From the NCBI RefSeq assembly GCF_026626665.1, contig NZ_JAPNKE010000002.1, forward strand, positions 1,421,204 to 1,485,203: 64,000 nucleotides of DNA. The letters are read 5' to 3'. Origin of the DNA: Nannocystis pusilla (GTDB taxonomy: Bacteria > Myxococcota_A > Polyangia > Nannocystales > Nannocystaceae). Below, in pieces: positions 3,011-63,376 of this stretch. The notes beneath the pieces were generated by a model. It was given only the letters and a program-made list of their open reading frames with translations. It had not been told where the DNA came from and searched no databases. A program made the translations under genes and the position numbers. Positions within the stretch are counted from its first letter, which is position 1. Every line of letters starts with the position of its first letter.

Positions 3011-4030
3011 TCACTCCGGCTGGGAGCCGTCGCAGGCGCCCGGGTCGGACTGCCACAGGTCGCAGTAGCGATCGGCCAGGAGGCCGCCGCGGCCGCTGTC
3101 GAAGTCGCCGCAGGTCGGGATGTCGTCGAGGGCGTCGAAGCAGAGCGGGTACTCGTAGGGGACGCCGGCGTCGTCGAGCATCTTGAGGCGCCGCTGATCG
3201 CCGACACAGACCGCGCCGTCCGGGCCCCACTCGGCCTCGATACCCCAGTTCTGCAGGGTCAGGGTCGCGGGGCTCTGGATCGCCGGGCTGAGGCCGTCGA
3301 ACACGTCGATCGGCGTGCCGGTGAAGGTGTGCGGGGTGCCGTCGCCGCAGTAGTCGGCGCGGGCCAGCCGCGTGCACGCCTGGTGGTGGTCGGCGAGGGA
3401 GACGCCGCCGACGGTGGCCCAGGGGCGATAACCCCACTCGACGCACTTGGCGAGCACGGCGTCGCGGCAGGCGAAGGTGACGACGCTGGCGTCGTCGTTG
3501 CGGTCGCCGGTGGCGCCGTCCCACCAGTTGGCGATGGCGATCGCCTGGGTCGGCTGACCGAGGTGGTCGTAGCAGAGGCTGGACCAGGTGCCGGCCTCCA
3601 CGTCCTGCACCGCGATGTCATAGAACCACACGTCGCCGTCGGGGTCGGCCGGGTCGAGGAAGATGTCGTCGAAGCGCAGGACGTAGGTGTCGGTGCCGGC
3701 CTCGAGGTTGAGCAGCGAGCCGATGAGGTCGTCGCCGCTCACCTGAACCGGAGTGCCGTCGACGACCATGGTGGCCGAGAAGCTGCTGCCGTTGAGGTTG
3801 ATGCCGTTGAGGTTGATCCCGTTCATGGTCCAACCGTTCATGCGCATCCCGTTGAGGTTGATCCCGTTCATGCGCATGCCGTTGAACTGCGTCCCGTTCA
3901 TCTGAGCGGAGTTCAACTCGAGTCCGTTACCGACGTCGCTTCGCAGCGTAACCGCCGTTTGAACGTCGTTATCGACGACATCACAGGCCACAACCGAACC
4001 GACCAGTGCCAGCCAAATCCCTCGAGTCAT
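3011..4030 (-). CDS. ADYC-domain lipoprotein with N-terminal NG pentapeptide-like repeats
   Basis: ATG at 4030 gives MTRGIWLALVGSVVAC (signal peptide plus lipobox-like VVAC). Repeats NGINL/NGMRM/NGWTM follow. The C-terminal Cys-rich domain contains the RADYCGDG motif. Confidence 0.6.
   Translation of the reverse strand: MTRGIWLALVGSVVACDVVDNDVQTAVTLRSDVGNGLELNSAQMNGTQFNGMRMNGINLNGMRMNGWTMNGINLNGINLNGSSFSATMVVDGTPVQVSGDDLIGSLLNLEAGTDTYVLRFDDIFLDPADPDGDVWFYDIAVQDVEAGTWSSLCYDHLGQPTQAIAIANWWDGATGDRNDDASVVTFACRDAVLAKCVEWGYRPWATVGGVSLADHHQACTRLARADYCGDGTPHTFTGTPIDVFDGLSPAIQSPATLTLQNWGIEAEWGPDGAVCVGDQRRLKMLDDAGVPYEYPLCFDALDDIPTCGDFDSGRGGLLADRYCDLWQSDPGACDGSQPE
3780..3900. repeat. Coding 15-nt tandem repeats (ccgttgaggttgatg-like) encoding the NG pentapeptide-like repeats of the ADYC lipoprotein
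   Basis: Direct nucleotide periodicity visible at 3781-3900. Confidence 0.7.
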
Positions 4031-10492: not shown

Positions 10493-11970
10493 GCGTGGCG
10501 CTCCAGCAGGCGCTGCACGCCCGGCGGCAGCGGCGGCAGGTGGGCTTCCCAGGTGCGCGGGAGGTCGCGCCGCGGGAACTCGGGGTAGACGCGGACGACC
10601 TCGTCCATGAAGTCGATGCCCATCTGACCCATGAGCTTCAGCTGGGCCGGGACGGCGCGGGCGATGTCGGCGCTGATGCCCTCGGCGTCGCGCCACAGGC
10701 GGCGCAGGGTGTGCAGCAGCTTGTCGCCGAGGCCCTCTTCGTCGACCTCGAAGAACATGTCCGGGTGGCCGCGGTCGTTCATGAGGTTGCGGATCCGCTC
10801 GTCCATGGTGACGCCGGCGGAGGGCACGAGGCCGGGCATCGAGGTGACGATCGCGTGGAAGCGCGAGCTCACCATCATGCTGCAGTTACGCAGCACGCTG
10901 ACGAGGTCGTACATGTCGTGCTCGTCGCTGACGAACAGCGCGCCGCCGCGGTCGAGCCGCGGCTGCAGGTCCTCGCAAGCGTGGCGGTCGAGCTGCTCCA
11001 TGCCGACGAGGATGGTGAAGAACTCGCGCTCCGCCGCGAAGGCGTTGACGCCGTCGGCCAGGGCCTGGATGTACGCGTTGTACTTCTTGTCGGCCGCTTC
11101 GCTGTGGTGGTGGAAGTAGAAGGCGCTGTAGTGCTCGTGCTTGTACTGCCCGCCGAGCTTGTAGGCGGCATACTTGAGCAGGTCGGGCTTGACCGGCCAC
11201 CAGAACGGGTTGATCGGGCAGACGACGAGGACCTTCTGGCGGCCGTCCCAGCCGGCGTCGCGCAGCAGCTGGGCACCCCTGGACAGCGGCGCGGGATCGA
11301 AGGTCCAGGCGGTGTCGGCCCCGCTGGTGGTGCGGATGCCGAGCTCGCCGAGGACCTTGCGCGAGGGCTCGTTGCGGCAGATGACCAGCGACTTCTTGCA
11401 GGCGTCGCGCACGAAGTCGCGGAGCGCCGGGGTCATGTTGCCGGCCTCGGCGCCGTAGCCGACGCTGACCTTGTTCTCGGCGTTGGCGAGGCCGAGCGCG
11501 CCGGCCATGAAGCAGGTCAGCGCGCTCGAGAACTTCGACTTGAACATCGAGCCCTCGCAGGCGATGACGCCGTGGTGCTTCGGGCACTCGGTGGCGATGA
11601 ACTTGGGGAACACCGCCGGCAGCTCGATCTGGTGGACGGCGCGGAAGTAGCCGCGCGTCAACTTGGGATCGACGGTCATGATCGTCAGCTCGAGCTGGTC
11701 GTCGCCGACGACGTGGCGCAGCTGGCGGATCATCTCCTCGACGCGGACGTCGGCGCCGGTGTTGCGCGTGCCGACGTAGCCGGCCAGCAGCAGCTTGAGC
11801 GGCTTGCCCGGCTTCCACGTCTCGGGCGCCATGCCGAGGACGTTGCGGACGGCGACGCCCTCGATGGCGGCGGCGACGGTGGCCTGGAGGGCGCGGTCGG
11901 GGTCGACGACGTCCTTGACCTTGTCCCAGATCTTGCTGGTGGTCTTCTTGACGGGTGCGCTCTTGGACAT
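10489..11970 (-). CDS. Polysaccharide pyruvyl transferase family (PF04230-like) protein
   Basis: LLAGYVGTRNTGADV N-terminal glycine/N.GD motif and SRFHAIVTSMPG motif. Family call from recalled motifs, moderate certainty. Confidence 0.45.
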   Translation of the reverse strand: MSKSAPVKKTTSKIWDKVKDVVDPDRALQATVAAAIEGVAVRNVLGMAPETWKPGKPLKLLLAGYVGTRNTGADVRVEEMIRQLRHVVGDDQLELTIMTVDPKLTRGYFRAVHQIELPAVFPKFIATECPKHHGVIACEGSMFKSKFSSALTCFMAGALGLANAENKVSVGYGAEAGNMTPALRDFVRDACKKSLVICRNEPSRKVLGELGIRTTSGADTAWTFDPAPLSRGAQLLRDAGWDGRQKVLVVCPINPFWWPVKPDLLKYAAYKLGGQYKHEHYSAFYFHHHSEAADKKYNAYIQALADGVNAFAAEREFFTILVGMEQLDRHACEDLQPRLDRGGALFVSDEHDMYDLVSVLRNCSMMVSSRFHAIVTSMPGLVPSAGVTMDERIRNLMNDRGHPDMFFEVDEEGLGDKLLHTLRRLWRDAEGISADIARAVPAQLKLMGQMGIDFMDEVVRVYPEFPRRDLPRTWEAHLPPLPPGVQRLLERHA

Positions 11971-11980
11971 GTTCGAAGGG

Positions 11981-15850: not shown

Positions 15851-16480
15851 GTGACCGCGCCGCTGCTCGTCTGCGCCGCCGATGTCGAGGGCCGCGGGCT
15901 GCCCTCGGCGCTGCGCCTCGGCGTCGGCAAGGTGGCGTCGGCGGTGAGCATGACGCAGGCGCTGATCGAGCGCCGGCCGGCGTGGGTGCTGCTGTTCGGG
16001 GTCTGCGGCGCCTATCCCGAAGGACATGGCCCGGGAGGCAGGCTCGACGTCGGCGACGTGTGCCTGGTCGGCGAGGACTGGCTGGGCGACGAGGGGGTGG
16101 CGGTCGACGACGGCTTCCTGCCGCTGGCGCAGCTGGGGCTCGGGTCGGTCGGGCCGTTCGAAGCCGACGCGGGGCGCACCGCCGCGGCGGCGCGGGTGCT
16201 CGCGGTGCCGGTGGTGCGCGGGGCGACGGTCAGCACCTGCAGCGGGACGGACGCGCGCTCGCGTGCGCTGGCCAGCGGCACGGGGGCCACGGTGGAGACG
16301 ATGGAGGGGGCAGCGGTGGCGTGGGCCTGTCGGGCGCTCGGGGTGCCGTGGGTGCAGCTGCGCTGCGTGAGCAATCGAACCGGCCGACGCGCCGCGGGCG
16401 GGTGGGACCTGCCGCGCGCGGTGGCCGGGGTGCAGGCGGCGCTGCTGCGACTGCAGGCCGCGGACTGGGGGAACGAATGA
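15851..16480 (+). CDS. mqnB: Futalosine hydrolase (MTA/SAH nucleosidase-like, MqnB)
   Basis: GTG at 15851 (VTAPLLVCAADVEG...). PNP/MTAN fold motifs (SGTGATVETMEGAAVAWAC). Its stop overlaps the mqnD ATG (ATGA). Confidence 0.6.
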   Translation: MTAPLLVCAADVEGRGLPSALRLGVGKVASAVSMTQALIERRPAWVLLFGVCGAYPEGHGPGGRLDVGDVCLVGEDWLGDEGVAVDDGFLPLAQLGLGSVGPFEADAGRTAAAARVLAVPVVRGATVSTCSGTDARSRALASGTGATVETMEGAAVAWACRALGVPWVQLRCVSNRTGRRAAGGWDLPRAVAGVQAALLRLQAADWGNE

Positions 16481-23518: not shown

Positions 23519-23588
23519 CGGGCATGCCCGATCGGGCATGTCTGCCAGGGCATGGCTGATGGGGCATGTGCTTCGAGACATGCCCTGA
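23519..23588. repeat. Cluster of GGGCATGCCC / GGGCATGTCT / GAGACATGCCC units (GGACATGTCC-core family)
   Basis: Intergenic, between the convergent EEP and amidohydrolase genes. Confidence 0.6.
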
Positions 23589-23591
23589 GGT

Positions 23592-24619
23592 TCATGGTGG
23601 GCGGTAGGCGCCGAGCCAGGCGCGGGCGTTGCCGCCGAGCAAGCGGGAGACGGCGGGCTCGGGGAGCGCGAGGCCGAAATAGACGCCGGGGGTGAGCGCG
23701 CCGATCCGGGCGGCGTGGCGCCAGAACTCGAACCGCTCGCGCTCGAGCAGGCCGAGGTTGGCGGCGAGCTGCAGGTCCCAGGCGCGCGCGGCGTCGAGGT
23801 CGCCGGGGGCCCCGCGCGCGGTGACGAGGTCGGAGCCGAACAGGAACCGCTCGGGCTGGATCTCGATGAGGGCGCGCAGCCGGTCCCGATCCTCCTCGAT
23901 GGCGGTGAAGCCGTCGACGCCGGGCAGGCCGGCGCCGTGGCTGGTGTCGACGCGCAGCCGCGGGAACTCGCGCAGCAGGCCGGCGAGGCGATCGAGGTCG
24001 GTGCGACTGCCGCACAGGTGGGCGCAGACCAGCTCGAGGCGCGGGTGGGCCCGCAGCACGCGGGCGAGCTCGTCGCGGTAGCGCACGGTGTTGACGTGGA
24101 CGAGCACGGGCACCGAGCGCTGCTCGAGCCACTCGAACAGGGAGGCGTGGGCCGGATCGTCGAGCGGGCGGGCGTGCAGCTTCTGGTGGCCGAAGTACAG
24201 CTTGACGCCGCGAGCCCCCGCTGAAACCACCGCTCGAGCGCGGGGATGTCGACCTCGGCCGGCTCGACGGCGATGAACGGGAACAGGCGCGCGCGGTGGG
24301 CCGCGGTGGCGGCGAGCAGGGCGTCGTTGGCCTCGCGCCAGCCGTGCATGCGCGCATCGGGGCCGGGAGCGAGGCCGAGCGCGGGATCGAGGTGCGGCGA
24401 GGCGATCACGACGGCGGCGGCGATGGCGTTGCGATCGAGCGCGGCGAGCAGGTCGTCGACCGCGCCGCCGACGAGGTGGACGTGGACGTCGACGCGGTCG
24501 CGCGCGGCAGGTTCGTCGTCGATGCCGGTGGTGCCGGTCGGCGTCGGGACGCCGCAGGCGAGCGCCAGGCCGGCGAGCAGGAGGGCCGCGAGGCGCCCCG
24601 CAGAGGCTTCAGCACTCAC
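23592..24619 (-). CDS. Secreted TIM-barrel amidohydrolase (amidohydrolase_2-like), apparent 1-nt frameshift near 24205-24215
   Basis: N-terminal signal peptide and VDVHVHL metal-binding motif in the frame of ORF 23270-24619. The C-terminal 2/3 (GVKLYFGHQ...) are in the frame of ORF 23592-24230. The switch is at a GGGGG run. Confidence 0.5.
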
Positions 24620-25389: not shown

Positions 25390-25750
25390 CGCGGAGACGG
25401 GATGTCCCAAAGGCCAGGCAGAGAGCCGGCGCGCCGCGCTTCCCGGATGTCCGAAGGGGCAGGCGATCCACGCGGACGACGAGGGGCGGATCTGCGAGAT
25501 CGAGATGTCCGGAGAGACAGGCGGCCGCGGCCGGAGCGCGCGCGAGGATGTCCGGAGAGACAGGGGGCCGCGGACGGAGCGCGCGCGGGATGTTCGGAGA
25601 GACAGGCGGCCGCGGCCGGAGTGCGCGCGAGATGTCCGGAGAGACAGGCGGACGCGGCCGGAGCGCGCGAGATGTCCGGAGAGACAGGCGGCCGCGGCCG
25701 GAGCGCGCGCGGGATGTCCGGAGAGACAGGCCGGTGGGGGTGACTGCGAG
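25390..25750. repeat. Tandem array of ~8 units of ~43 nt (GATGTCCGGAGAGACAGGCGGCCGCGGCCGGAGCGCGCGCGAG)
   Basis: Direct periodicity read at 25502-25735, with degenerate copies from 25395. There are no unique spacers, so this is not a CRISPR array. The unit is related to the GGACATGTCC family. Confidence 0.8.
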
Positions 25751-38395: not shown

Positions 38396-38419
38396 GCCGC
38401 GCCCGTGCGTGAGAGGCGT

Positions 38420-38445
38420 GACCGCCAGGACATGTCCTGGCGGTC
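38420..38445. repeat. Perfect 26-bp palindrome GACCGCCAGGACATGTCCTGGCGGTC
   Basis: Lies 25 nt after the PBP stop, in the gap between convergent genes. GGACATGTCC core. Confidence 0.85.
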
Positions 38446-38654
38446 ATGCTGCTTTCGGGGCGCGCGCCGAGCTCGAACGGCGGCCCTGAAGCGCCGCGGT
38501 CGACGGTCGCTCCGCGCACGCGAGCGCGGTCGTGGATGCGCACCCGCCGGCGAGGCGAGCGCGACCCGAGCGCCCACACGGCAGCGCGGGATGGTGAAGA
38601 GCCGGACACTCGAGCTCGCTCGTGGACGTCCCGCGGCGCGTCTCTCAATCAACA

Positions 38655-38715
38655 GGGCCGTTCGGACATGTCCGAACGGCCCTGCGTGAGCGGGCATGTC
38701 CATCGGGACATGCCG
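38655..38715. repeat. Perfect 28-bp palindrome GGGCCGTTCGGACATGTCCGAACGGCCC followed by the imperfect palindrome CGGGCATGTCCATCGGGACATGCCG
   Basis: Read directly; the element ends ~7 nt before the ACAD stop. Confidence 0.85.
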
Positions 38716-41347: not shown

Positions 41348-43405
41348 ATGGCGACGAACGAAGGGAGCCGCGACTCCGGCCAGGCTGGCGAGGATCGATC
41401 GGTGCCGCGGTTGACCGCGGTCATCGTGGATCCTCCGGACTCGCTCCCGCCGACGCCCGTGGTCTCGCACGAGCTGGGCGCCGACGACGACCTCGCAGAG
41501 GAGTATGAGGCAGCGCTCGAGAACCAGGTCTCGGCGGCCCACTTCTCGATCGAGCTCGGACGCCCGTCCGGCGAGGTCGAGCTCGACGGGCAGCCGACGA
41601 GCGTGGACGGCGAGCCCCAGGCCGAAGACGAGGACACCGTCGAGCGCACCGCCGCCAAGAGCCTCAAGGCCAAGGCGACGGCGGCCAAGCGCGACGCGCT
41701 GTTCGGCCAGGTGCTGGCCGACCGCTACCGGATCCTCGACCTCATCGGCAAGGGCGGGATGGGCAAGGTCTACCTCGCCGAGCACGTGGCGCTCGGCAAG
41801 AAGGTGGCCGTCAAGGTCCTGAACCCGGCCTACACCAACCGCCCCGACCAGGTGAAGCGGTTCCTCCGCGAGGCCCGGGCGGCGTCGACGATCGGCCACG
41901 AGAACGTCATCGACATCACCGACTTCGGCGCGATGCCCAACGGCCAGGTGTTCTTCGCCATGGAGCACCTGCAGGGCGAGGACCTCGGCAAGATCCTCAA
42001 GAAGGGGCCGATGTCGTGGGCGCGGGCCCGCCGGGTGCTGCTGCAGATCTGCCGCGCGCTGCAGGCCGCCCACGCGCACGGGATCATCCACCGGGACATG
42101 AAGCCGGAGAACGTCTTCCTGATCCAGCGCAACGGGATCCGCGACTTCGTCAAGGTGCTCGACTTCGGGATCGCCAAGTTCCTCGAGGAGAACCGCGACG
42201 GCGGCACGAACCCGCTGACGCAGGTGGGCGCGCTGATCGGCACGCCCGAGTACATGGCGCCGGAGCAGATCCACGGCGACCCGGCCGACCAGCGCATGGA
42301 CATCTATGCGGTCGGCTGCATCCTCTATCAGCTGCTCACCGGCAACCTCCCGTTCACCGACAAGACGATGTACGGGGTGCTGTCGCAGCAGGTGAACGCC
42401 AAGCCGGTGCCGCCGCGGCAGCTGGCGCCCGAGGCCGACATCCCGGTCGAGGTCGAGGCGGTCATCCTGAAGGCGATGGAGAAGGACAAGACGCAGCGTT
42501 ACCAGACGATGGGCGAGCTGATCGAAGCCATCGTCGCGACGCCGCGCGGGGCCGCCGGGGACGTCGGGCGGACCACCACGACCAACCTCGAGGCGGCGGC
42601 CCAGGCGGCGCGCCTGGCCGTCGGGGTCAGCATGCCGGCGGGCGTGGCCGTGCCCAACCCGGTCACGCCGGACGACTCGTTGCTGACGCAAGGACTCAGC
42701 AGCGCGTCGGGGCTGCGGCCGACGTCGCTGTCGCTGCCGTGGCGCGGCGGGACGATGGACGCGCAGATGTTGTCGCGCCTGGTGATCGGCCTCGGCGCGG
42801 CGGTGCTGGTGCTGGTGGTCGGCCTGGTGTGCGCGCTCAGCCGCAGCGACGATCCGAAGCCGCAGCCGGTCGACAAGCCCAGCGAGGTCGCGGCGGTCAC
42901 GGCCGGCTCGCCCGAGGCGCCGAAGCCGGTCGAGACGCCGGAGACGAAGATCGAGGCGCCGCCGGAGACGAAGGTCGAGCCGACGCCGGAGCCGAAGAAG
43001 GCCGACGACGAGCCGATCGTGGTCGACGACGAGGCGAAGAAGGACGCGGGCAAGAAGGCCACCGAGCCCAAGAAGACGACCACGGTCAAGAAGAGCGAGC
43101 CGTCCGCGCCGAAGGGCGAAGAGGTGTCGGCCAACTGGCCCGAGGTGCTGGGGCCGATGGAGCGCTCGCAGGCGCTGAAGAGCTACCGCGCCGAGTTCGA
43201 GACCTGCCGGACGATCAGCACGCCGAAGGGCAAGACCTACAAGCTGCGGCTCAAGGTCGACGGCCCGAAGGGGCGCGTGACCGAGGCGACGTCCGACGAC
43301 ACGAGCGCGGAGGCGAAGTGCCTGGCGCGGGCCTTCAAGACCAAGGTCCGGTTCGTCAACACCCGCAAGACGCCGCAAGAGTTCACGATCGTCGTGCCGC
43401 TCTGA
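41348..43405 (+). CDS. Ser/Thr protein kinase with a single TM helix and Lys/Pro/Glu-rich extracytoplasmic region
   Basis: GKGGMGKVY, HRDMKPENV, DFGIAK, GTPEYMAPE. TM segment LVIGLGAAVLVLVVGLVCAL. Confidence 0.8.
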   Translation: MATNEGSRDSGQAGEDRSVPRLTAVIVDPPDSLPPTPVVSHELGADDDLAEEYEAALENQVSAAHFSIELGRPSGEVELDGQPTSVDGEPQAEDEDTVERTAAKSLKAKATAAKRDALFGQVLADRYRILDLIGKGGMGKVYLAEHVALGKKVAVKVLNPAYTNRPDQVKRFLREARAASTIGHENVIDITDFGAMPNGQVFFAMEHLQGEDLGKILKKGPMSWARARRVLLQICRALQAAHAHGIIHRDMKPENVFLIQRNGIRDFVKVLDFGIAKFLEENRDGGTNPLTQVGALIGTPEYMAPEQIHGDPADQRMDIYAVGCILYQLLTGNLPFTDKTMYGVLSQQVNAKPVPPRQLAPEADIPVEVEAVILKAMEKDKTQRYQTMGELIEAIVATPRGAAGDVGRTTTTNLEAAAQAARLAVGVSMPAGVAVPNPVTPDDSLLTQGLSSASGLRPTSLSLPWRGGTMDAQMLSRLVIGLGAAVLVLVVGLVCALSRSDDPKPQPVDKPSEVAAVTAGSPEAPKPVETPETKIEAPPETKVEPTPEPKKADDEPIVVDDEAKKDAGKKATEPKKTTTVKKSEPSAPKGEEVSANWPEVLGPMERSQALKSYRAEFETCRTISTPKGKTYKLRLKVDGPKGRVTEATSDDTSAEAKCLARAFKTKVRFVNTRKTPQEFTIVVPL

Positions 43406-44712
43406 TGCGCGTCGCGTTCAGCACGCTCGGCTGTCGCCTCAACCAGTTCGAGTCCGACGCCCTCGAGCAGATGGCCCGCGCGGCCGGCCACACCGTGGTC
43501 GACGCCGAGGCCGCGCCCGAGGTCGTGATCGTCAACACCTGCACGATCACCCACGAGGCCGACGCCGACGCGCGCCAGCACGTGCGCCGGGCCGCGCGCG
43601 CCGGGGCGAAGGTGGTGGTCACCGGCTGCTGGGCGACGGCCGCCCCCGCCGAGGCGGCGGCGCTGCCCGGGGTGACGCTGGTGGTCGGCAACCGCGAGAA
43701 GGAGCGGCTGTTCGAGGTGCTCGGAGAGACATGTTCGGAAGGACATGTCCCGGAGATCCACGTGGCCCCGGTCGACCTGCTGCGGCGCGTCCGCGCGGCC
43801 CGCTTGCGCCCGGCCGCCGACCCGCGGCGCAGCCGGGCGTACCTGAAGATCCAGGACGGCTGCGACTACCGCTGCAGCTTCTGCATCGTGCCGCAGGTGC
43901 GCGGGCGCAGCGTGAGCGTGGCGCCCGCGGAGGCGCGGGCGCAGCTGGACGAGCTGGTCGCCGCGGGGGTGCCCGAGGTGGTGCTCACCGGGGTCCACCT
44001 CGGGATCTACGGCCGCGACCTGCGGCCGCGCAGCTCGTTGTCGTCGCTCGTCGCGGAGCTGCTGCCGCAGCTCGGGTCGGCGCGGCTGCGCCTCGGCTCG
44101 GTCGATCCGCACGAGGTCGACGATGACCTGGTGACGCTGTTGGCGAGCGACCCGCGGCTGTGTCCGTACCTCCACTTGCCGGTGCAGAGCGGCGACGACG
44201 ACACGCTGCGGCGCATGCGGCGGGCGCACACCGCCGCCGACCTGCAGGCGCTGGTGCCTCGCCTGGCCGCGGCGGTGCCGGGGATCGGCGTGGGCACCGA
44301 CGTGATCGTCGGCTTCCCGGGCGAGTCGGAGGAGGCGTTCGCGGCCACGCACGCGCTGCTGGCCGCGCTGCCGCTGGCGTACCTGCACGTGTTCGCCTAC
44401 TCGCCGCGCGCGGGCACCGACGCCGCCTGTCTCTCGGGTCAGGTCGACGCGGCGGTCAAGCAGCGGCGCGGGATGGCGTTGCGGGCGCTGTCGGCGGCGA
44501 AGCAGGAGGCGTTCGCGGCGGCGCAGATCGGGCGAACCCTGCCGGTGGTGATGCACCGGTCGCGACACCGGCGTACAGGGCTGCTGGTGGGTCGGGCCGG
44601 CAACGGCTTGACGGTGCTGGCGGCCGGCGACGACGCGCTGCTGGGCCGGGCGACCCAGATCGAGGTCGAGCGCGCCGAGGGGCCGCTCGCGCTCGGTCGA
44701 CTGCTCGCGTGA
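43405..44712 (+). CDS. MiaB-like tRNA methylthiotransferase (MtaB-type MTTase: N-terminal MTTase domain plus radical SAM)
   Basis: The ATG overlaps the kinase TGA (TGATG). CDYRCSFCIVP radical SAM motif; N-terminal VNTCTITHEAD. Confidence 0.8.
   Translation: MRVAFSTLGCRLNQFESDALEQMARAAGHTVVDAEAAPEVVIVNTCTITHEADADARQHVRRAARAGAKVVVTGCWATAAPAEAAALPGVTLVVGNREKERLFEVLGETCSEGHVPEIHVAPVDLLRRVRAARLRPAADPRRSRAYLKIQDGCDYRCSFCIVPQVRGRSVSVAPAEARAQLDELVAAGVPEVVLTGVHLGIYGRDLRPRSSLSSLVAELLPQLGSARLRLGSVDPHEVDDDLVTLLASDPRLCPYLHLPVQSGDDDTLRRMRRAHTAADLQALVPRLAAAVPGIGVGTDVIVGFPGESEEAFAATHALLAALPLAYLHVFAYSPRAGTDAACLSGQVDAAVKQRRGMALRALSAAKQEAFAAAQIGRTLPVVMHRSRHRRTGLLVGRAGNGLTVLAAGDDALLGRATQIEVERAEGPLALGRLLA
43724..43760. 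repeat. GGACATGTCC-family element (GAGACATGTTCGGAAGGACATGTCCCGGAG) lying in frame inside the MTTase coding sequence
   Basis: Encodes ...GETCSEGHVPE... in the linker between the MTTase N-domain and the radical SAM core. Confidence 0.6.
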
Positions 44713-44990
44713 GTGCGGCGCGATGCGTGACTTCGCTGCGGAGGAGCCTCGGGCGAGTACCGACGCTCACGCGCCGGTTCGGTTCGAACTTCCGGACAGG
44801 TGATGCGCCACGAGCCGCGTTTGCCCGCCGATCCCTGTTCCGGACAGGCAGGGCGCGGGACAGGTGATGCGCCACGAGCCGCGTTTTGTCCGCCGATCCC
44901 TGTTCCGGGACAGGCAAGGCGCGGCCGTTCACGAGCGTTCGAGTCGGTCTGAACTTCGGGACAGGTGATGCGCCTCGCCGGTCAGCCCCA
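44713..44990. repeat. Tandem array of ~65-nt units (GGACAGGTGATGCGCCACGAGCCGCGTTTGCCCGCCGATCCCTGTTCCGGACAGGCAGGGCGCG), two full and two partial copies
   Basis: Direct repeat read at 44792-44985. The units contain a GAACTTCGGGACAGG module that is also present at 57618. Confidence 0.75.
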
Positions 44991-45767
44991 GAACCAGGCT
45001 TCGGCCTCGCACCAGAGCTCGCGCGGCGGGCGGTAGTCGTAGTGGACCGGCACGTGGATGGCGTCGACGCGGCGGGCCAGCTCGCGCAGCGCGACCGCGT
45101 CGGGGATGGCGGCGAGCTCTGCGACCGTCGGTTCGGTCGGGATGTCGCAGTCTTCGGGGGCGACGATCGCTTTGCCGGTGAAGGGGTTCGTGGCCACGAC
45201 CTCGCCCTCGCGCACGTGCCGGGTCTTCGGGAACAGCATCCGCGGGCCGAAGTTGATCCACATGGCGATCAGGTCGCGGTCGTCGATCTGTTCGGCCGCT
45301 CGCGTCACCTGCAGCGCGACGTTGCCGAGCGGCAGCGGCCGCGGCGGCTCGGCGTCGGCGCCTCGCAGCACCCCGGCGGCGACGAGGTCGTGCCACAGCG
45401 GCGTGCCGGCGTCGCAGTACAGGGCGCCCGCGAGGAGGTAACCGTTCTCGTGACCGACGGAGGGCCGGTCTTCGGGCGGCTCGCGGCCGAGGACCTCCGA
45501 GTCGACGAAGCGCCACTCCTTCGGCGGCGCGCCCTTGAAGGCGCGGTTGTTGGCGGCGAACTGCGGGTGCGCGGTGATCGGCAGGCGGTAGGTGAAGCGC
45601 CGCGCGATCAGGATGTCGAGCACGCGCCCGTGGGTGAAGCCGCAGTCGAAGCCGGCCTGGAAGGCGTGGAGCGCGAAGAACAGGTCGCGATGGTCGTCGC
45701 CGCGGTGGTGCTCGTGAAGGACGCGCACCGAGTCGGCGACGGTGTCTTCGATCTCGTGCTGGGACAT
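44982..45767 (-). CDS. Hypothetical protein (261 aa)
   Basis: Clean ORF with Myxococcales-like codon usage. No motif I can assign. Confidence 0.4.
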   Translation of the reverse strand: MSQHEIEDTVADSVRVLHEHHRGDDHRDLFFALHAFQAGFDCGFTHGRVLDILIARRFTYRLPITAHPQFAANNRAFKGAPPKEWRFVDSEVLGREPPEDRPSVGHENGYLLAGALYCDAGTPLWHDLVAAGVLRGADAEPPRPLPLGNVALQVTRAAEQIDDRDLIAMWINFGPRMLFPKTRHVREGEVVATNPFTGKAIVAPEDCDIPTEPTVAELAAIPDAVALRELARRVDAIHVPVHYDYRPPRELWCEAEAWFWG

Positions 45768-45804
45768 GCGAGATCAGCCGGACGGACGTCGGCGCCGAGC
45801 TGGC

Positions 45805-45826
45805 CGCGAGGACATGTCCTGGCGGC
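45805..45826. repeat. Near-perfect palindrome CCGCGAGGACATGTCCTGGCGG
   Basis: Intergenic, between the hypothetical gene and the MBL hydrolase gene. Confidence 0.6.
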
Positions 45827-45834
45827 CAGTCGGC

Positions 45835-48590: not shown

Positions 48591-49928
48591 TCAGGCGCGG
48601 GCATGGCTGTCCTTCGGGTCAGGTGACTCGGCGAGCGCGCGCACCAGGGCGGCGGCGCAGCGGTCGACGGTGCCGCGGATCTCGGCGGGCGTGGTGGCGC
48701 CGGCCAGCTCGCCGACGGCCCACAGCGTCCACGGCGGAGGCGGAGCGGTCTGGGCGCCTTCGGCCTCGAGCGGGTGCGCGGCCGGGCCGGCGGCGATCCG
48801 GCCGTCGGCGTCGACGACGGGGGCGAAGCCGGCCCCGGTGAAGTGGATCGGGGCGCCGGCCTGGGCGGCCAGCTCGAAGGCGGGGGCGGGGTCGGGGGCG
48901 AGGGCGACGAGGTCGCAGCGGAGGATCTTGCCGTCCTCGAGCTGGACGCCCTTGACCCGGCGCGCGCCGATCAGCTTGCGCACGCGCGCCGGCGGGACCC
49001 GCTCGGCGGCGAGGGTGCTAGCGAGCAGCTCGGCGCGGGCGCCCTCGCCGATGACGACGACGCGCGCGCTCGACTTGCGACCTGTCTGTTCGAGCATGTC
49101 CGCGAGGCCACGTGCGGACACGACCCCGGGGAGGTCGTTGTTGGCCAGCGGGATGGTCGGCTCGTGGGCGCCGACGGCCAGGACGACGTGGCGCGGGCGC
49201 AGGCGGTGGAGCACCGGCGGCTGCTCGGAGGCGGCGGCCCACAGCCGCTCCTGCGGGTAGCAGGCGAACACGCCGACGCCGGCGAGGAGCCGCGCCGGGA
49301 GGTCGCTGCCGCCGAGGGCGGTGGCGGCGCGGCGCTCGACGACCAGCGGCGGGTGGCCGGCGGCGGTCAGGGCGGCCGCGAGCGCGCGGCCGGAGCGACC
49401 TGCCCCGATGACCAGGACCTCGGGGGCATGGTCGACGACGGCGGCGACGTCTTCGGGCGGCGCGTCGGGCAGCTCGCCGAAGCCGGCCAGCTCGCGGGCG
49501 ACGCCCTGCATCATCTGGTTGGCGATCCGCGGGTAGACGACGAGGTGGTGGTGATCGATGCCGCGGCGGAACACCTGGTCGACGAGGGCGGTCGGGTCGA
49601 GGCCGCCGTAGGTGTTCTGCGGCTCGACGCACATGTCCTCGCGGACAGGCGTGAGGCAGGCCCGCTGGTTGGGCCGGCCGTCGACGCGCACGAGGCAGGT
49701 GCCGCAGCCGCCGTGCAGGCAGGCGGGGCCGCGCAGCCGGCGGTACTTGGCGCTGCGGCTGGTGGCGAGCTCGCCGGCGGCGATCAACGCGGAGGCGACG
49801 GTGTCGCCGGGGCAGGCGGCGACCGGGGCGCCGTCCCAGCGGAAGGAGATCGTCGGAGGCCCGGGCGGTGCGAGCAGGGGTGCCTTGGGCACGCGCCTGC
49901 GATAGCACGCCGCGCCGCGCGGGGACAT
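48591..49928 (-). CDS. NAD(P)/FAD-dependent oxidoreductase with N-terminal 2Fe-2S domain (HcnB / sarcosine-oxidase-alpha-like)
   Basis: N-terminal C...CLHGGCGTC...C ferredoxin-like cluster; VLVIGAGRSG dinucleotide motif. Confidence 0.6.
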   Translation of the reverse strand: MSPRGAACYRRRVPKAPLLAPPGPPTISFRWDGAPVAACPGDTVASALIAAGELATSRSAKYRRLRGPACLHGGCGTCLVRVDGRPNQRACLTPVREDMCVEPQNTYGGLDPTALVDQVFRRGIDHHHLVVYPRIANQMMQGVARELAGFGELPDAPPEDVAAVVDHAPEVLVIGAGRSGRALAAALTAAGHPPLVVERRAATALGGSDLPARLLAGVGVFACYPQERLWAAASEQPPVLHRLRPRHVVLAVGAHEPTIPLANNDLPGVVSARGLADMLEQTGRKSSARVVVIGEGARAELLASTLAAERVPPARVRKLIGARRVKGVQLEDGKILRCDLVALAPDPAPAFELAAQAGAPIHFTGAGFAPVVDADGRIAAGPAAHPLEAEGAQTAPPPPWTLWAVGELAGATTPAEIRGTVDRCAAALVRALAESPDPKDSHARA

Positions 49929-50234: not shown

Positions 50235-50966
50235 TCAGGCGCGCGGCGGTCGGGCGCCGAAGATGGCGGTGCCGACGCGGACCATGGTCGCGCCCTCTTC
50301 GATCGCAACCTCGAAGTCGGCGCTCATGCCCATGGAGAGGTGGACCAGGTCGACGCCGGGGCGCGCGATCGCGGCTTCACGGCGCAGCAGCTCGCGCAGG
50401 CGGGCGAAGTACGGGCGAGTCTGCTCCGGCTCGCCTTCGGGGGGAATCGCCATGAGGCCGACGCAGCGCAACTGGGGACGGGCGGCGATCTGGTCGAGCA
50501 GCGCGGGCAGTTCGGTGGTGGCGACGCCGGCCTTCTGGGCCTCGTCGCCGACGTTGACCTCGACGAGCAGCTCGAGCGGGGTAGTGGCGCCTCGACCCGC
50601 GCGCAGGCGCTCGACCTCGCGGGCGAGCTCGTCGACGAGCCCCGGGCGATCGACGGTGTGGACGAGGGCGCCGACGGCGACGACCTTGCGCACCTTGTTG
50701 GTCTGCAGCGGGCCGATGAAGTGCCAGCGCGGCGGGGTGACCTCCGCCGCGACGAGCTCGGCCTTGGCCACCAGCTCCTGGGCGTAGTTCTCGCCGAGGT
50801 CGCCGAGGCCGGCCCGGCAGGCGGCGATCACGGCCTCGGCGGGCTGCTTCTTGCTGACGCCGATGAGGGTGGGCACGGGACCGGGGCCGCGGCGGGCGAC
50901 GGCGGCGGCGATCCGGGCGCGGACGGCGGCGAGGTTGGCGGCGATGTCGTCTGGCGTCAAGGACAT
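50235..50966 (-). CDS. yggS: YggS-family pyridoxal-phosphate homeostasis protein
   Basis: LIGVSKKQP (PLP lysine) and the C-terminal HLSMGMS.DF motif. Confidence 0.8.
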   Translation of the reverse strand: MSLTPDDIAANLAAVRARIAAAVARRGPGPVPTLIGVSKKQPAEAVIAACRAGLGDLGENYAQELVAKAELVAAEVTPPRWHFIGPLQTNKVRKVVAVGALVHTVDRPGLVDELAREVERLRAGRGATTPLELLVEVNVGDEAQKAGVATTELPALLDQIAARPQLRCVGLMAIPPEGEPEQTRPYFARLRELLRREAAIARPGVDLVHLSMGMSADFEVAIEEGATMVRVGTAIFGARPPRA

Positions 50967-51009
50967 GTCTTAAAGGGCCTGCGCGAAGAGACAGGCAGAG
51001 TCGGCGGGG

Positions 51010-56784: not shown

Positions 56785-57584
56785 GCCCCGGCTCCGAGTG
56801 TGCACTGCCAGCCGACCGCGAGGTGCGGCTCGAGGGCGATCCGCGCCGGGGCGCCGGCGGCCAGCGCCTCGACCAGGGCGAGCGCGGCGGCGCACGGGTT
56901 TTCGGCCAGGGCGGCCGGGACCGGACGTGGCGCCGGGAGCATGTCGCTGGGGCCATGTTCGAGGCGACATGTCCTCGCGGGCATGTCGCCGGGGACAGGC
57001 GCCGACAGGGCGAAGGCGGCGGCGAACGGGTCCCAGCGGCGGCCGGCGGCCAGCGGCTCGGGCAGCGGCTCCTCGGCGATCACGAGCACCACGTCGCCCT
57101 CGCCGGCGGCCACGAGGGCGGCGCACTCGACGAGGCCCATGGCGAGGGTGCTGCGGCCGGCCGACAGCGCGGCGTTGCCGGCCCGGTTGCCGGTGGCGAT
57201 CGAGACGTAGCCGGCGGCCGTGTTGTGGACGCTGTTGTGGAACTTGGTCGGCGACAGCGGCTCGCCGGCGACGAGCAGGGCGGCGAGCAGGTCGAGGGTG
57301 GTGCGGATCTCGCCGTAGACGGAGCCGTAGACGAGGGTGGCCGCGGCCCGGTCGACGCCGCCGTCCTGCAGCGCCTGGGCCGCGACCTCGGCGGCCATGC
57401 GGGTGAGCAGGCTGGTGCGCCGGCGCATCATCGGCGGCAGCAGCTCGGCCTTCGGGGCGGAGGGCTCGGTCGGCGGCGCCTGTCCTTCGGGCCAGGTGTC
57501 GGGCCGGGCCCGCCAGGCGGCGAGGTCGGGGTAGCCTGGGGTCCAGAAGCCGAGGCCGCGGACGGTGAAGGCGAGCGCGCTCAT
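56781..57584 (-). CDS. Beta-ketoacyl synthase N-terminal-domain protein without catalytic Cys (chain-length-factor-like, PF13723-like)
   Basis: MSALAFTVRGLGFWTPGY...TKFHNSVHNTAAGYVSI matches the KS-N family found in aryl-polyene-type clusters. It contains an in-frame GGACATG-repeat insert. Confidence 0.45.
   Translation of the reverse strand: MSALAFTVRGLGFWTPGYPDLAAWRARPDTWPEGQAPPTEPSAPKAELLPPMMRRRTSLLTRMAAEVAAQALQDGGVDRAAATLVYGSVYGEIRTTLDLLAALLVAGEPLSPTKFHNSVHNTAAGYVSIATGNRAGNAALSAGRSTLAMGLVECAALVAAGEGDVVLVIAEEPLPEPLAAGRRWDPFAAAFALSAPVPGDMPARTCRLEHGPSDMLPAPRPVPAALAENPCAAALALVEALAAGAPARIALEPHLAVGWQCTLGAGA
56931..57010. repeat. GGGCATGTCGC...GCGACATGTCCTCGCGGGCATGTCGCC repeat cluster lying in frame inside the KS-N-like CDS
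   Basis: Encodes ...PGDMPARTCRLEHGPSDMLPAP... on the minus strand. Confidence 0.55.
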
Positions 57585-57617: not shown

Positions 57618-57729
57618 GAACTTCGGGACATGGCCCGGAAGACCTGTACGAAAGAGCAGCCGCACGGACAGAGGCGCCGCCGGGGAGGTGTCGTCGGGGA
57701 CATGTCCCGGGAGACCTGTCGGAAGGTGC
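57618..57729. repeat. Two GGACATG-family units (GAACTTCGGGACATGGCCCGGAAGACCTGTACG and GGGGACATGTCCCGGGAGACCTGTCGGAAGG)
   Basis: Intergenic, between the KAS stop (57730) and the KS-N-like start (57584). Confidence 0.65.
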
Positions 57730-58935: not shown

Positions 58936-60193
58936 TCAGAGGCCGGGGGCCGGGAAGGCGCGCAGGAACTCGCGCACGCGGCCGCGGTGGACCTCGCAGC
59001 GGGCGTCGTCAGCGTTCTCGACGGCGAGGGCGACGCCGTCGGCGATCAGGTCGGCGACGACCGGCATGTGATGGACCTCGATGCCGCGCGAGGTGATGGC
59101 GGCCAGGCCGATGCGCAGGCCCGAGGGGTCGAACGGCTTGCGCGGGTCGAACGGGATGGCGTTGGCGTTGAGCTCGATGCCGCAGCGGTTGAGCACGCGC
59201 GCGACGTGGCGGCCGCCCTGGCCGGTGGGCGTCAGATCGAGGAGCAACAAGTGGTTGTCGGTGCCGCCCGACACGAGGACGTGGCCGCGGGCGATCAGGG
59301 CCTCCGCGAGGGCCTGGGCGTTGGCGACGATCTGATGCGCATAGTCGCGGAAGCTCGGCTGCAGCGCCTCGCGGAAGGCGACGGCCTTGGCGGCGGTGGT
59401 GTGGCAGTGCGGGCCGCCCTGCAGGCCGGGGAACACGGCCTTGTCGATCGCGGCCGCGTGCTCGGCCTTGCTGAGGATGAGGCCGCCGCGCGGGCCGCGG
59501 AGCGTCTTGTGCGTGGTGGTGGTGACGACGTCGGCGTGCGGCACGGGGCTCGGGTGCGCGCCGCCGGCGACGAGGCCGGCGATGTGCGCGATGTCGGCCG
59601 CGAGCCAGGCCCCGACCTCGCGCGCGATCGCGGCGAAGCCGGCGAAGTCGAGCTGGCGCGGGTAGGCCGAGTGACCGACCCAGATGAGCTTGGGGCGGTT
59701 GGCGAGCGCGAGGCTGCGGACCTCGTCGAGGTCGATGCGGTGGTCGTCGCGGCGGACGCCGTACTGGACGGCCTTGTAGTAGATGCCGGTGGCGCTGACC
59801 TTCCAGCCGTGGGTGAGGTGACCGCCCGCGGGGAGGGCCAGCCCCATGATGGTGTCGCCGGTCTGGCACAGGGCGAGCAGCGCGGCGAGGTTGGCCGGCG
59901 ATCCGCTGTAGGGCTGGACGTTGGCGTGATCGGCCCCGAACAGCTCGCGCGCGCGGGCGATGGCGAGGGACTCGATCGGGTCGACGAAGTCCATGCCCTC
60001 GTAGTAGCGCTTGCCCGGGTAGCCCTCGGCGTACTTGTTGGTGAGGCTGGTGCCGGTCGCGGCGAGCACGGCCTTCGACACGTATCTCGCTGGCGATGAG
60101 GCGCAGGCTGTCGCGCTGGCGCGCGTCCTCCTGCTCGATCAGCGCGAAGATCTCGGGGTCGGCGGCGGAGAGCTCGGGATCGCGGGCGTGCAC
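58936..60193 (-). CDS. glyA: Serine hydroxymethyltransferase, apparent 2-nt deletion near 60070-60075
   Basis: [17 protein letters not shown]-lysine motif and [16 protein letters not shown]. The N-terminal 40 aa ([25 protein letters not shown]) are in the frame of ORF 59009-60193, with GTG at 60193. Confidence 0.75.
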
Positions 60194-60404
60194 GCCCGAG
60201 GTTTTCCTGCTCGAAGGGTCGCGGAGTCAAGCCCGGCGGGCCGCGTCGGCGAAGGTCCCGACGCGGCCCCGAGTTCGCCGCAGGCCCGGACGGCGAATGC
60301 CGTTTCGCGGCCCGGCGCGGCGGCGCTGCGGCCGCTCCCCTGCAAACAGGGGCGCCGCGCGCCTCCAGGCCCACAACGCCGCCGGCCCTTGATACCATGC
60401 AGGC

Positions 60405-63376
<2,972 letters not shown>

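What the first reader, a model, noticed from the sequence alone, without database searches (positions are those of the whole stretch)
43724..43760. Repeat-family element sitting in frame inside the MiaB-like methylthiotransferase gene
GAGACATGTTCGGAAGGACATGTCCCGGAG is translated as GETCSEGHVPE in the linker between the MTTase N-domain and the radical-SAM core, without breaking the frame. In-frame intragenic insertion of palindromic elements is known from Rickettsia RPEs. Here it would imply the repeat is mobile and tolerated in loops and linkers.
Basis: partly seen in the sequence, partly recalled or inferred. Interest (0 to 1): 0.65.

Follow-up and report, generated by a model that had tools for sequence, protein, structure and literature searches.

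The report
Conserved repeat hairpin inside mtaB gene
A 28-30 base copy of a very abundant, mostly intergenic palindromic repeat of Nannocystis sits in frame in a surface linker of the tRNA-modifying enzyme MtaB, and related species have kept its DNA sequence (not just the peptide) using otherwise avoided codons, so it looks like a selected nucleic-acid element rather than a recent jumping-gene insertion.

Summary
Observation confirmed. GAGACATGTTCGGAAGGACATGTCCCGGAG lies at 43726-43755, in frame in mtaB (43405-44712, +). It encodes ETCSEGHVPE (aa 108-117) between the UPF0004 and radical-SAM domains. It matches a real repeat family of 14-bp palindromic units, TGTCC-N4-GGACA, which often abut to give GGACATGTCC. 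The window holds 36 units against about 2 in shuffles, and they are about 9-fold denser outside genes.

Interpretation partly supported. This is not an 11-12 aa insertion. The eight orthologs that carry it form one clade (N. pusilla, N. punicea and relatives), and their linker is only 3-4 codons longer than in sister lineages. The copy is old.

It is constrained at the nucleotide level. A/T-ending codons make up 49% of its 11 codons against 3.7% in the rest of the gene. Their retention between species is 0.91 against 0.23. Two RCATGY cores stay exactly 14 nt apart while the residues between them vary. Seven of eight orthologs fold into the same 7-9 bp hairpin, and one pair shows a compensatory change.

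Best reading: a REP-like hairpin unit fixed once in a tolerant loop and then maintained. Its function is unknown. The closest analogues are REP/BIME, HIP1 and RPE, but it belongs to none of them.

The parts
43405..44712 (+). mtaB gene (435 aa), host of the element. Its ATG overlaps the stop codon of the upstream Ser/Thr kinase gene (TGATG).
   Evidence: TIGR01579 at 377.5 bits, above cut-off. Pfam UPF0004 at 2-95 and Radical_SAM at 148-318. 100% identical to a Nannocystis pusilla MtaB (P0001).
43726..43755 (+). The reported 30-mer, codons 108-117 (ETCSEGHVPE). It consists of two 14-nt-phased family units, GAGACATGTTCGGA and AGGACATGTCCCGG.
   Evidence: Exact single match. Two mismatches to GGACATGTCCNNNNGGACATGTCC. 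Six of the 11 codons 107-117 end in A/T.
43728..43749 (+). Predicted stem-loop: GACAUGUUC (43728-43736), GGAA loop (43737-43740), GGACAUGUC (43741-43749).
   Evidence: dG -13 kcal/mol, z -3.5. The same outer 7-bp helix forms in 7 of 8 orthologs. One pair switches A-U to G-C in L083 and L085.
43732..43745 (+). Central 14-bp family unit TGTTC-GGAA-GGACA.
   Evidence: It has 1 mismatch to TGTCCNNNNGGACA.
44425..44445 (+). Possible second embedded family-like site in mtaB (aa 341-347): GCC TGT CTC TCG GGT CAG GTC, i.e. cCTGTCTCTCGGGTCAGG.
   Evidence: Rare TGT and CTT codons are kept in 6-7 orthologs. The outgroup L088 has a clean two-unit array there, GCATGTCTCTCCGGACAGGTCCCTGCGGACATCA. The site is the inverted complement of the 25504-25731 array unit (I22/I24). 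The case is weaker because the LSGQV peptide is itself conserved.
44794..44924 (.). 64-nt tandem duplication just downstream of mtaB, containing GGACAGG / CCTGTTCCGGGACAGG family modules.
   Evidence: TRF: 2.0 copies, 94% matches.
45798..45827 (.). Long family hairpin CTGGCCGCGAGGACATGTCCTGGCGGCCAG (two abutting mirror units), 7 nt behind the stop codon of the lactamase-fold gene.
   Evidence: dG about -35 kcal/mol. Conserved at the orthologous site in L001 (2 copies), L081, L083 and L084 (3 copies).
38416..38713 (.). Three family hairpins in the convergent spacer behind the acyl-CoA dehydrogenase gene: 38420-38445, 38652-38685 and 38694-38713.
   Evidence: Perfect 26- and 32-nt palindromes. 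The outgroup L090 has family units in the orthologous spacer.
23519..23600 (.). Six-unit, 14-nt-phased array (GGGCATG + 7 nt), starting about 6 nt after a stop codon.
56939..56990 (.). Four-unit, 14-nt-phased array.

Best explanation
The element is a two-unit copy of a lineage-specific, high-copy, mainly extragenic palindromic repeat family (unit TGTCC-N4-GGACA; abutting units give GGACATGTCC). I call the family REP-like. The copy became part of the mtaB interdomain linker once, in the common ancestor of the N. pusilla / N. punicea clade, through a small net gain (+9 to +12 nt) plus substitutions. This was not insertion of a 30-nt cassette. It is translated as the end of a helix plus a surface loop, which the enzyme tolerates. 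Since then the nucleotide sequence itself has been kept: two RCATGY cores exactly 14 nt apart that pair into a 7-9 bp stem-loop, encoded with codons the genome otherwise avoids. Shown: family membership, reading frame, clade-specific presence, nucleotide-level conservation, and conserved folding potential. Inferred: the constraint acts on a hairpin in the mRNA or in single-stranded DNA. The same factor or process that maintains the thousands of extragenic copies (which often sit 6-8 nt behind stop codons, where REP-type hairpins act as 3' barriers or protein-binding sites) would also act on this intragenic copy. My best guess for its local effect is a modest structural barrier or binding site inside the gap-free pseudoU-synthase / kinase / mtaB operon. 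This last step is speculative.
For: Family and membership.

Extragenic bias of 9- to 20-fold, and positions just behind stop codons.

Single origin: the eight carriers are monophyletic in a tree built without the linker, and sisters lack the peptide.

Small length change.

Nucleotide-level constraint:
- A/T-ending codons are 44/89 in the element vs 126/3395 elsewhere.
- TGT is used in 8/8 (background 12/63), CAT in 7/7 (background 3/96), and ACA or GCA in 8/8 (background 8/720).
- A/T3 retention is 0.91 vs 0.23, at 18-35% divergence of 4-fold sites.
- The residues between the cores vary (S/G/T/L/D/A, E/K, G/A/E/R).

Hairpin:
- Seven of eight orthologs fold alike, with dG -9 to -18.5 and z -2 to -5.6. 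Outgroups do not.
- The outer arms are conserved while the inner half-sites and loop vary.
- There is one A-U to G-C double change, in two non-sister sequences.
- The three non-Watson-Crick pairs are all G.U on the sense strand.

Loop location: AF2 model.

Growth by substitution: extra in-phase units in L001, L083 and L081 are made from ordinary codons.
Against: The covariation rests on one pair in two sequences, and 49 of 500 column shuffles reach the same score. The eight orthologs are related by descent, so the conservation counts are not independent. Across the family the 5-bp half-sites are nearly invariant while the 4-nt spacer varies. That is the signature of a double-stranded DNA operator rather than of an RNA stem. 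No function, binding protein or transposase has been identified. One carrier (L086) has lost the second arm without obvious consequence. Cys110 and His114 could in principle also matter to the protein.
Confidence: 0.6

Rival explanations
1. Double-stranded-DNA binding site. The units are operators for an abundant dimeric DNA-binding protein (a nucleoid-associated protein, global regulator or recombinase) that recognises TGTCC-N4-GGACA. The mtaB copy is kept because a site is needed inside a 4-kb operon that has no intergenic spacers.
For: Only two half-site arrangements occur: a gap of 4 (7 times) and a gap of 0 (7 times). Half-sites are invariant while spacers vary in dozens of copies. Units occupy nearly every intergenic spacer in L129 and L130. 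HIP1 is a precedent for a selected palindrome thought to act on the chromosome (PMC5861425).
Against: In the mtaB orthologs the inner half-sites (TGTTC, TGTGG, TGTAC ... GGACA, GCACA, GAACA) are not conserved. The outer arms that pair with each other are conserved. In L083 and L085 each decamer becomes asymmetric while complementarity between the units is kept.
Confidence: 0.25
2. Recent mobile insertion of a palindromic element (RPE- or MITE-like).
For: Copy number differs at an orthologous intergenic site, with 1, 2 or 3 copies. An identical 18-mer, GGCCGCGAGGACATGTCC, occurs at unlinked loci. The family is denser in the clade than in outgroups.
Against: The net length difference is only 3-4 codons. 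No target-site duplication or terminal repeats are visible. The copy is shared by eight diverged lineages as a single gain. Other intragenic units differ from the outgroup sequence by substitutions only.
Confidence: 0.07
3. Protein-level selection only. Cys110 and His114 (for example as metal or cluster ligands near the N-terminal [4Fe-4S] domain) are what is conserved, and the DNA motif is a by-product.
For: C110 is kept in 8/8, H114 in 7/8 and P116 in 8/8.
Against: Codon choice is not explained. TGT, CAT and NCA are used in all carriers against strong genomic bias. The variable residue before His is nearly always encoded with a purine-rich, A-ending codon (GGA, GCA, GAA, AGA) that completes the motif. 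The residues are absent from all other MtaB proteins examined.
Confidence: 0.08
4. A rare-codon cluster selected to pause translation at the domain boundary. The resemblance to the repeat family is incidental.
For: 49% rare codons at a linker.
Against: Outgroup linkers have no such cluster. What is conserved is a specific sequence with fixed 14-nt phasing and self-complementarity that matches the family at 15 of 16 specified positions, not merely codon rarity.
Confidence: 0.07
5. Chance resemblance with no meaning.
For: Some GGACATGTCC hits in coding DNA are trivial. Examples are GAC ATG TCC = D-M-S, start-codon contexts, and about two thirds of the metagenome hits.
Against: 0.08 such matches are expected per window, and the site shows cross-species conservation with rare codons.
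Confidence: 0.02

Closest known systems
REP / BIME elements (repetitive extragenic palindromes) of proteobacteria
   Same: Short imperfect palindromes able to form stem-loops. High copy number. Strongly extragenic. Clustered in arrays. Often right behind stop codons between convergent genes. Copy number varies between relatives at the same site. REP definition taken from the abstracts of PMC2817692 and PMC3733652.
   Different: The unit is only 14 bp, is itself symmetric and abuts in strict 14-bp phase. It has no GTAG or CGTC head. No RAYT transposase has been identified. This copy is intragenic, translated and conserved.
HIP1 (GCGATCGC) of cyanobacteria
   Same: A short palindrome over-represented 10-fold or more, conserved at orthologous positions inside ORFs, interpreted as selected rather than continually replenished (PMC5861425). 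Here the intragenic copy is likewise conserved against codon bias, and intragenic units appear to arise by substitution.
   Different: HIP1 is conserved both within and between ORFs. This family is 9- to 20-fold enriched outside genes, is longer and bipartite, and forms arrays and hairpins. No link to a methyltransferase is known.
Rickettsia palindromic elements (RPE)
   Same: A palindromic repeat found in frame inside unrelated housekeeping genes, at positions compatible with the protein fold (PMC10969869).
   Different: RPEs are ~150 bp, carry their own conserved peptide ORF and insert as a block. Here the element is 28-30 nt, the net gain is 3-4 codons, and there is no block insertion. The organism and the sequence are unrelated.
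DNA uptake sequences (USS/DUS) of Pasteurellaceae and Neisseriaceae
   Same: Abundant short motifs that occur as inverted pairs forming terminator-like hairpins behind genes. They are also found inside genes, preferentially in tolerant reading frames and poorly conserved protein segments.
   Different: No evidence for competence or uptake bias in Nannocystis. The family unit is palindromic and phased.

Membership tests
MtaB (host gene) | Scores above the curated cut-off of the equivalog model TIGR01579 | tested here: met
   377.5 bits vs 357.05.
MtaB (host gene) | N-terminal MTTase (UPF0004) domain with three Cys, plus a radical-SAM CxxxCxxC motif | tested here: met
   Pfam hits. C10 is conserved in >=90% of 50 homologs, and C46, C75, C153, C157 and C160 are invariant.
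Rickettsia palindromic element (RPE) | Element of roughly 100-150 bp that encodes its own conserved peptide and inserts as a block | tested here: not met
   28-30 nt, with a net +3-4 codons relative to sister lineages. RPE size from PMC10969869.
Rickettsia palindromic element (RPE) | In-frame position in a host ORF at a structurally tolerant site | tested here: met
   In frame. End of helix plus loop, pLDDT 65-81.
Rickettsia palindromic element (RPE) | Sequence similarity to an RPE family consensus | not tested
   No RPE sequences were compared. The host is a myxobacterium.
REP / BIME | Short (20-40 nt) imperfect palindrome able to form a stem-loop | tested here: met
   mtaB copy: dG -13 kcal/mol. 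Intergenic copies: -26 to -35.
REP / BIME | High copy number, predominantly extragenic | tested here: met
   36 units in 64 kb vs 2 in a shuffle; 2.0/kb in non-coding-like vs 0.23/kb in coding-like sequence. The same bias holds in 27 related loci. The whole-genome count is an extrapolation.
REP / BIME | Conserved GTAG or CGTC tetranucleotide at one end | tested here: not met
   No such head is seen in the aligned copies. Criterion taken from the abstract of PMC3733652.
REP / BIME | Associated RAYT (Y1) transposase gene in the genome | not testable with these tools
   The full Nannocystis genome could not be scanned. The window's ORFs were not scanned for Y1 transposase domains.
HIP-type iterated palindrome | Palindrome over-represented 15-fold or more | tested here: inconclusive
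   About 11-fold for GGACATGTCC with <=1 mismatch (21 vs 1.9). About 18-fold for the 14-bp unit.
HIP-type iterated palindrome | Conserved at orthologous positions within ORFs | tested here: met
   For the mtaB copy only.
HIP-type iterated palindrome | Abundant inside genes as well as between them | tested here: not met
   9- to 20-fold extragenic bias.
Known RNA families (Rfam) | Match at gathering threshold anywhere in the window | tested here: not met
   0 matches.

The most novel reading that the evidence does not exclude
The 14-bp TGTCC-N4-GGACA units are functional cis-elements of Nannocystaceae, acting either as hairpins or as binding sites for a lineage-specific factor. Their presence would be selected at a certain density along the chromosome or transcript. 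Where an operon offers no intergenic space, a copy is built into, and then maintained inside, a tolerant protein loop at the price of rare codons and altered amino acids. That would make mtaB a clean, experimentally tractable case of selection on a hyper-abundant palindrome overriding codon and protein optimisation. It would also give a handle on the long-open question of what REP- and HIP-type repeats are for.
Probability: 0.3. Interest if true: 0.7.

Novelty: new variant of a known kind. Interest (0 to 1): 0.45.

Why it matters
Short hyper-abundant palindromes such as REP, HIP1 and uptake sequences are common in bacteria, but their functions are mostly unresolved. Intragenic copies are usually dismissed as selfish insertions or chance. 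In this case a family unit inside an essential-type housekeeping gene has been kept for a genus-scale span of divergence. It uses the codons the genome most avoids, its phasing is preserved and it retains pairing potential. That pattern argues for selection, or a strong directional process, acting on the nucleic acid itself. It also offers a single well-defined site where synonymous recoding could test what the family does. As far as I could find, the repeat family itself has not been described for Nannocystis. The caveat is that the function is not established, and the general phenomenon of repeats translated in frame in protein loops is already known from other bacteria.

Tried and rejected
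- Rfam scan of the whole window found nothing.
- A formal covariation test of the hairpin gave only one compensatory pair, and 49 of 500 shuffles did as well. I treat it as suggestive, not proof.
- GNRA tetraloops looked enriched among the first 24 hits. The enrichment did not hold in a census of 92 units (13 vs about 4-5 expected, with CCGG, GAAG and TCGG more common), so I dropped that argument for an RNA-level role.
- I tried the kinase gene (unit at 61058-61071) as a second in-frame example. The unit sits exactly where the Pkinase match breaks, at the start of a roughly 85-aa activation-loop insert. The only close ortholog is frameshifted at that point, so conservation could not be tested.
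- I tried the 2Fe-2S protein gene (unit at 49634-49647) as a third example. It has no indel relative to the outgroup, but most of the motif follows from the widely conserved peptide TPVRxGM. It is only weak support for origin by substitution.
- The genome-contig scan returned just two close genomes. The other ortholog DNA came from encoding-contig look-ups.
- In the metagenome scan with the 18-mer, about two thirds of the 72 hits are chance matches in unrelated genes that encode G-R-E-D-M-S. About 24 are genuine family loci.
- A literature search found no description of a Nannocystis repeat family.
- I considered and rejected several other readings: an internal start or alternative ORF (43731-44126 is a high-GC artefact), CsrA-type GGA sites (GGA in the loop is not conserved across orthologs), and CRP/FNR- or MrpC-type operators (the geometry is similar, but the site density is far too high and the inner half-sites are not conserved in mtaB).

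Full report
**1. What is there**

The window is 71.7% G+C. Its MtaB protein is 100% identical to one from Nannocystis pusilla (P0001). The ORF 43405-44712 (+) encodes 435 aa and passes the curated MtaB equivalog threshold (TIGR01579, 377.5 vs 357 bits). Pfam places UPF0004 at residues 2-95 and Radical_SAM at 148-318. The three N-domain cysteines and the CxxxCxxC motif are conserved or invariant among 50 homologs. The start codon overlaps the stop codon of an upstream Ser/Thr kinase gene.

The 30-mer GAGACATGTTCGGAAGGACATGTCCCGGAG occurs once, at 43726-43755. It is read as E108-T-C-S-E-G-H-V-P-E117.

**2. The repeat family is real, and the mtaB copy is a good member**

- GGACATGTCC with at most 1 mismatch occurs 21 times against 1.9 expected.
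- Distances between CATG tetramers peak at 14, 28 and 42 nt (13, 9 and 10 pairs).
- The half-sites TGTCC and GGACA occur together almost only in two arrangements, TGTCC-N4-GGACA and GGACA|TGTCC, each 7 times.

The basic unit is thus a 14-bp palindrome, TGKCC-N4-GGMCA. Abutting units create the decamer GGACATGTCC and the 14-nt phasing. Two mirror-image units make long perfect hairpins of -26 to -35 kcal/mol, as at 38420-38445, 38652-38685 and 45798-45827.

The two-arm pattern ACATGTCCNNNNGGACATGT with at most 3 mismatches has 24 hits against 0.08 expected. The mtaB copy has a single mismatch and is among the three best.

A census of the unit with at most 1 mismatch gives 36 in the window against 2 in a shuffle. 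Density is 2.0 per kb in non-coding-like sequence and 0.23 per kb in coding-like sequence. The same bias appears in seven related Nannocystis loci (2.3 vs 0.10) and in 20 metagenomic family loci (2.7 vs 0.12). In contigs such as L129 and L130 nearly every intergenic spacer carries units.

Several arrays start 6-8 nt after a stop codon, often between convergent genes: 23519, 38694-38713 and 45798-45827. Copy number at the orthologous site behind the lactamase-fold gene is 1, 2 or 3 in different relatives.

The family is REP-like in behaviour. It has no GTAG or CGTC head, and no Rfam family matches. I found no published description.

**3. Is it an 11-12 aa insertion? No**

I aligned the protein with 49 homologs. 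Only the eight closest (78-100% identity; they include sequences named N. pusilla and N. punicea) carry x-[T/A]-C-x-[E/K]-x-[H/Q]-[V/A]-P-x. The next relatives read GEPAAE-R, GEPASQPA or AATEAPR. The carriers are therefore only 3-4 codons longer, and the remainder is replacement within an already variable linker.

A neighbour-joining tree built without the linker makes the eight carriers monophyletic, which implies a single gain. No target-site duplication or clean indel boundary is visible.

The AlphaFold2 model (mean pLDDT 91) places the segment at the end of helix 97-109 and in loop 110-116. Local pLDDT is 81, 65 and 58 for the successive ten-residue blocks from residue 101, so this is a tolerant linker.

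It is not met. Far outgroups have neither the family nor the peptide. Near outgroups have the family at about one third of the density and lack the peptide.

**4. The key new result: the nucleotide sequence is what is conserved**

I fetched the orthologous DNA for the seven other carriers and several outgroups and aligned it by codon.

- All eight carriers keep RCA TGT.
- Seven keep xxA CAT GYC exactly 14 nt downstream.
- The residues in between vary: S/G/T/L/D/A, E/K, G/A/E/R.

In these genes 3.7% of codons end in A or T (126/3395). In the 11 codons of the element 49% do (44/89). TGT is used in 8 of 8 (background 12/63), CAT in 7 of 7 (3/96), and ACA or GCA in 8 of 8 (8/720).

Between species an A/T-ending codon is retained as A/T-ending 91% of the time inside the element and 23% elsewhere. 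Four-fold sites differ by 18-35%. Outgroup linkers have no rare-codon cluster.

A purely protein-level explanation (Cys or His ligands) or a generic pause site does not predict this specific, phased, family-matching sequence.

**5. Hairpin**

ACATGT is self-complementary, so the two units pair with each other. RNAalifold predicts a 7-bp helix, G(A/G)CAUGU / ACAUG(U/C)C. Individually, 7 of 8 orthologs fold this way, with dG -9 to -18.5 kcal/mol and z -2.0 to -5.6. L086 has lost the second arm, and the outgroups show nothing comparable.

The conserved positions are the outer arms. The inner half-sites and the loop drift. In L083 and L085 the first arm changes A to G (Thr to Ala) and the second arm changes U to C (Val to Ala), which restores a G-C pair. 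These two sequences are not sisters. The three non-Watson-Crick pairs are all G.U on the sense strand.

This favours a stem-loop in RNA or single-stranded DNA over two independent duplex operators. The statistics are weak, however: 49 of 500 shuffles match the covariation score. Family-wide, invariant half-sites with variable spacers would fit a duplex-binding protein equally well. I therefore keep the DNA-operator model as the main rival.

**6. How such copies arise**

In L001 and L083 a third CATG lies 14 nt upstream, made from GAC ATG. In L081 an additional unit, ACCTGTTCTCGGGGACATGT, precedes the element and is made from ordinary codons. In the 2Fe-2S protein gene the unit at 49634-49647 differs from the outgroup by substitutions only, although most of it follows from a conserved peptide.

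Most intragenic units in the window use a cheap frame, CCT GTC Cnn nnG GAC A, which needs only one rare codon. The mtaB copy is the most codon-costly, with 6 of 11. This pattern resembles HIP1, which is conserved inside ORFs and judged to be under selection (PMC5861425). It resembles block insertion of ~150-bp RPEs less (PMC10969869).

**7. Mechanism and confidence**

Shown:
- family membership;
- in-frame translation in a loop;
- a single old origin with a small net gain;
- nucleotide-level constraint;
- conserved folding potential.

Inferred: the constraint is on a hairpin, and whatever maintains the extragenic copies also acts here. Those copies sit behind stop codons, where REP-type hairpins are known to work as 3' barriers or binding sites. 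The pseudoU-synthase / kinase / mtaB genes are packed without spacers, which could explain why a unit is kept inside a gene.

I give about 0.6 to the overall explanation, about 0.25 to the duplex-operator rival, and under 0.1 each to recent mobile insertion, protein-only selection and generic pausing.

**8. Verdict**

This is a new, undescribed REP/HIP-like family, with an unusually well-conserved, codon-costly, translated copy in mtaB. It is a new variant of a known kind. Interest is moderate (0.45). The phenomenon has precedents and the function is unknown, but the site is a clean test case for selection on an abundant palindrome.

Noticed in passing
window 25504-25731: A 42-nt tandem array (5.5 copies, 91% matches) with unit GATGTCCGGAGAGACAGGCGGCCGCGGCCGGAGCGCGCGCGG. 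The period is three 14-nt phases built from family modules (TGTCC-GGAGA-GACAGG). It lies in a roughly 0.6-kb non-coding stretch between two minus-strand genes. AGAGACAG is the most over-represented 8-mer in the window (43-fold).
   Followed up: partly
window 44425-44445; L088 4012-4045: A second family-like site inside mtaB (aa 341-347) with conserved rare TGT and CTT codons. In the outgroup L088 the same place holds a clean two-unit array that uses GCA, TGT, GGA and CCT codons. mtaB may therefore carry two embedded units of different ages.
   Followed up: partly
window 44985-45767 (-): A 261-aa ORF with good coding statistics and no Pfam hit lies between mtaB and the lactamase-fold gene. tblastn finds it in L001 (N. 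punicea, 80% identity) and partly in L082. In L081, L083, L084, L088 and L090 the two flanking genes are almost adjacent. It is a lineage-specific gene gain flanked by family repeats.
   Followed up: partly
window 44794-44924: A 64-nt tandem duplication (2 copies, 94% matches) directly downstream of mtaB, containing GGACAGG and CCTGTTCCGGGACAGG modules.
   Followed up: no
window 60405-61433 and 61058-61085: A Ser/Thr kinase gene has a family unit (TGTCCCTCGGGACATGTCCGAAAACATC) exactly where the Pkinase profile match breaks, at the start of a roughly 85-aa low-complexity activation-loop insert. The ORF also seems to shift frame near 61400 into the long 60035-63376 frame. The only close ortholog (P0241, another N. 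pusilla) is frameshifted right at the unit and reads it as SLGTCPRT. This may be a decaying gene or an indel hotspot at the repeat.
   Followed up: partly
window 16013-16040: TAT CCC GAA GGA CAT GGC CCG GGA (YPEGHGPG) is a family unit read in the same frame as the second mtaB unit (EGHVPE), with 5 of 11 rare codons. It lies near the apparent start of a plus-strand gene. Whether this stretch is coding is uncertain.
   Followed up: no
window 11965-11974, 50961-50970, 57698-57707: In several places the ATG inside ACATGTCC appears to be the start codon of a minus-strand gene (M-S...). Part of the GGACATGTCC excess may therefore come from start-codon contexts, or family units may overlap translation starts.
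   Followed up: no
window 3774-3916 (-): 15-nt periodic repeats (CCGTTGAGGTTGATG and variants) inside a minus-strand gene, encoding a pentapeptide-type repeat (..I/M-N-L/G-N-G..).
   Followed up: no
L090 5170-5207: A near-outgroup genome that lacks the mtaB element still has two family units 28 nt apart in the spacer behind the acyl-CoA dehydrogenase gene. This is orthologous to window 38416-38713. The family therefore predates the mtaB copy and expanded later.
   Followed up: yes
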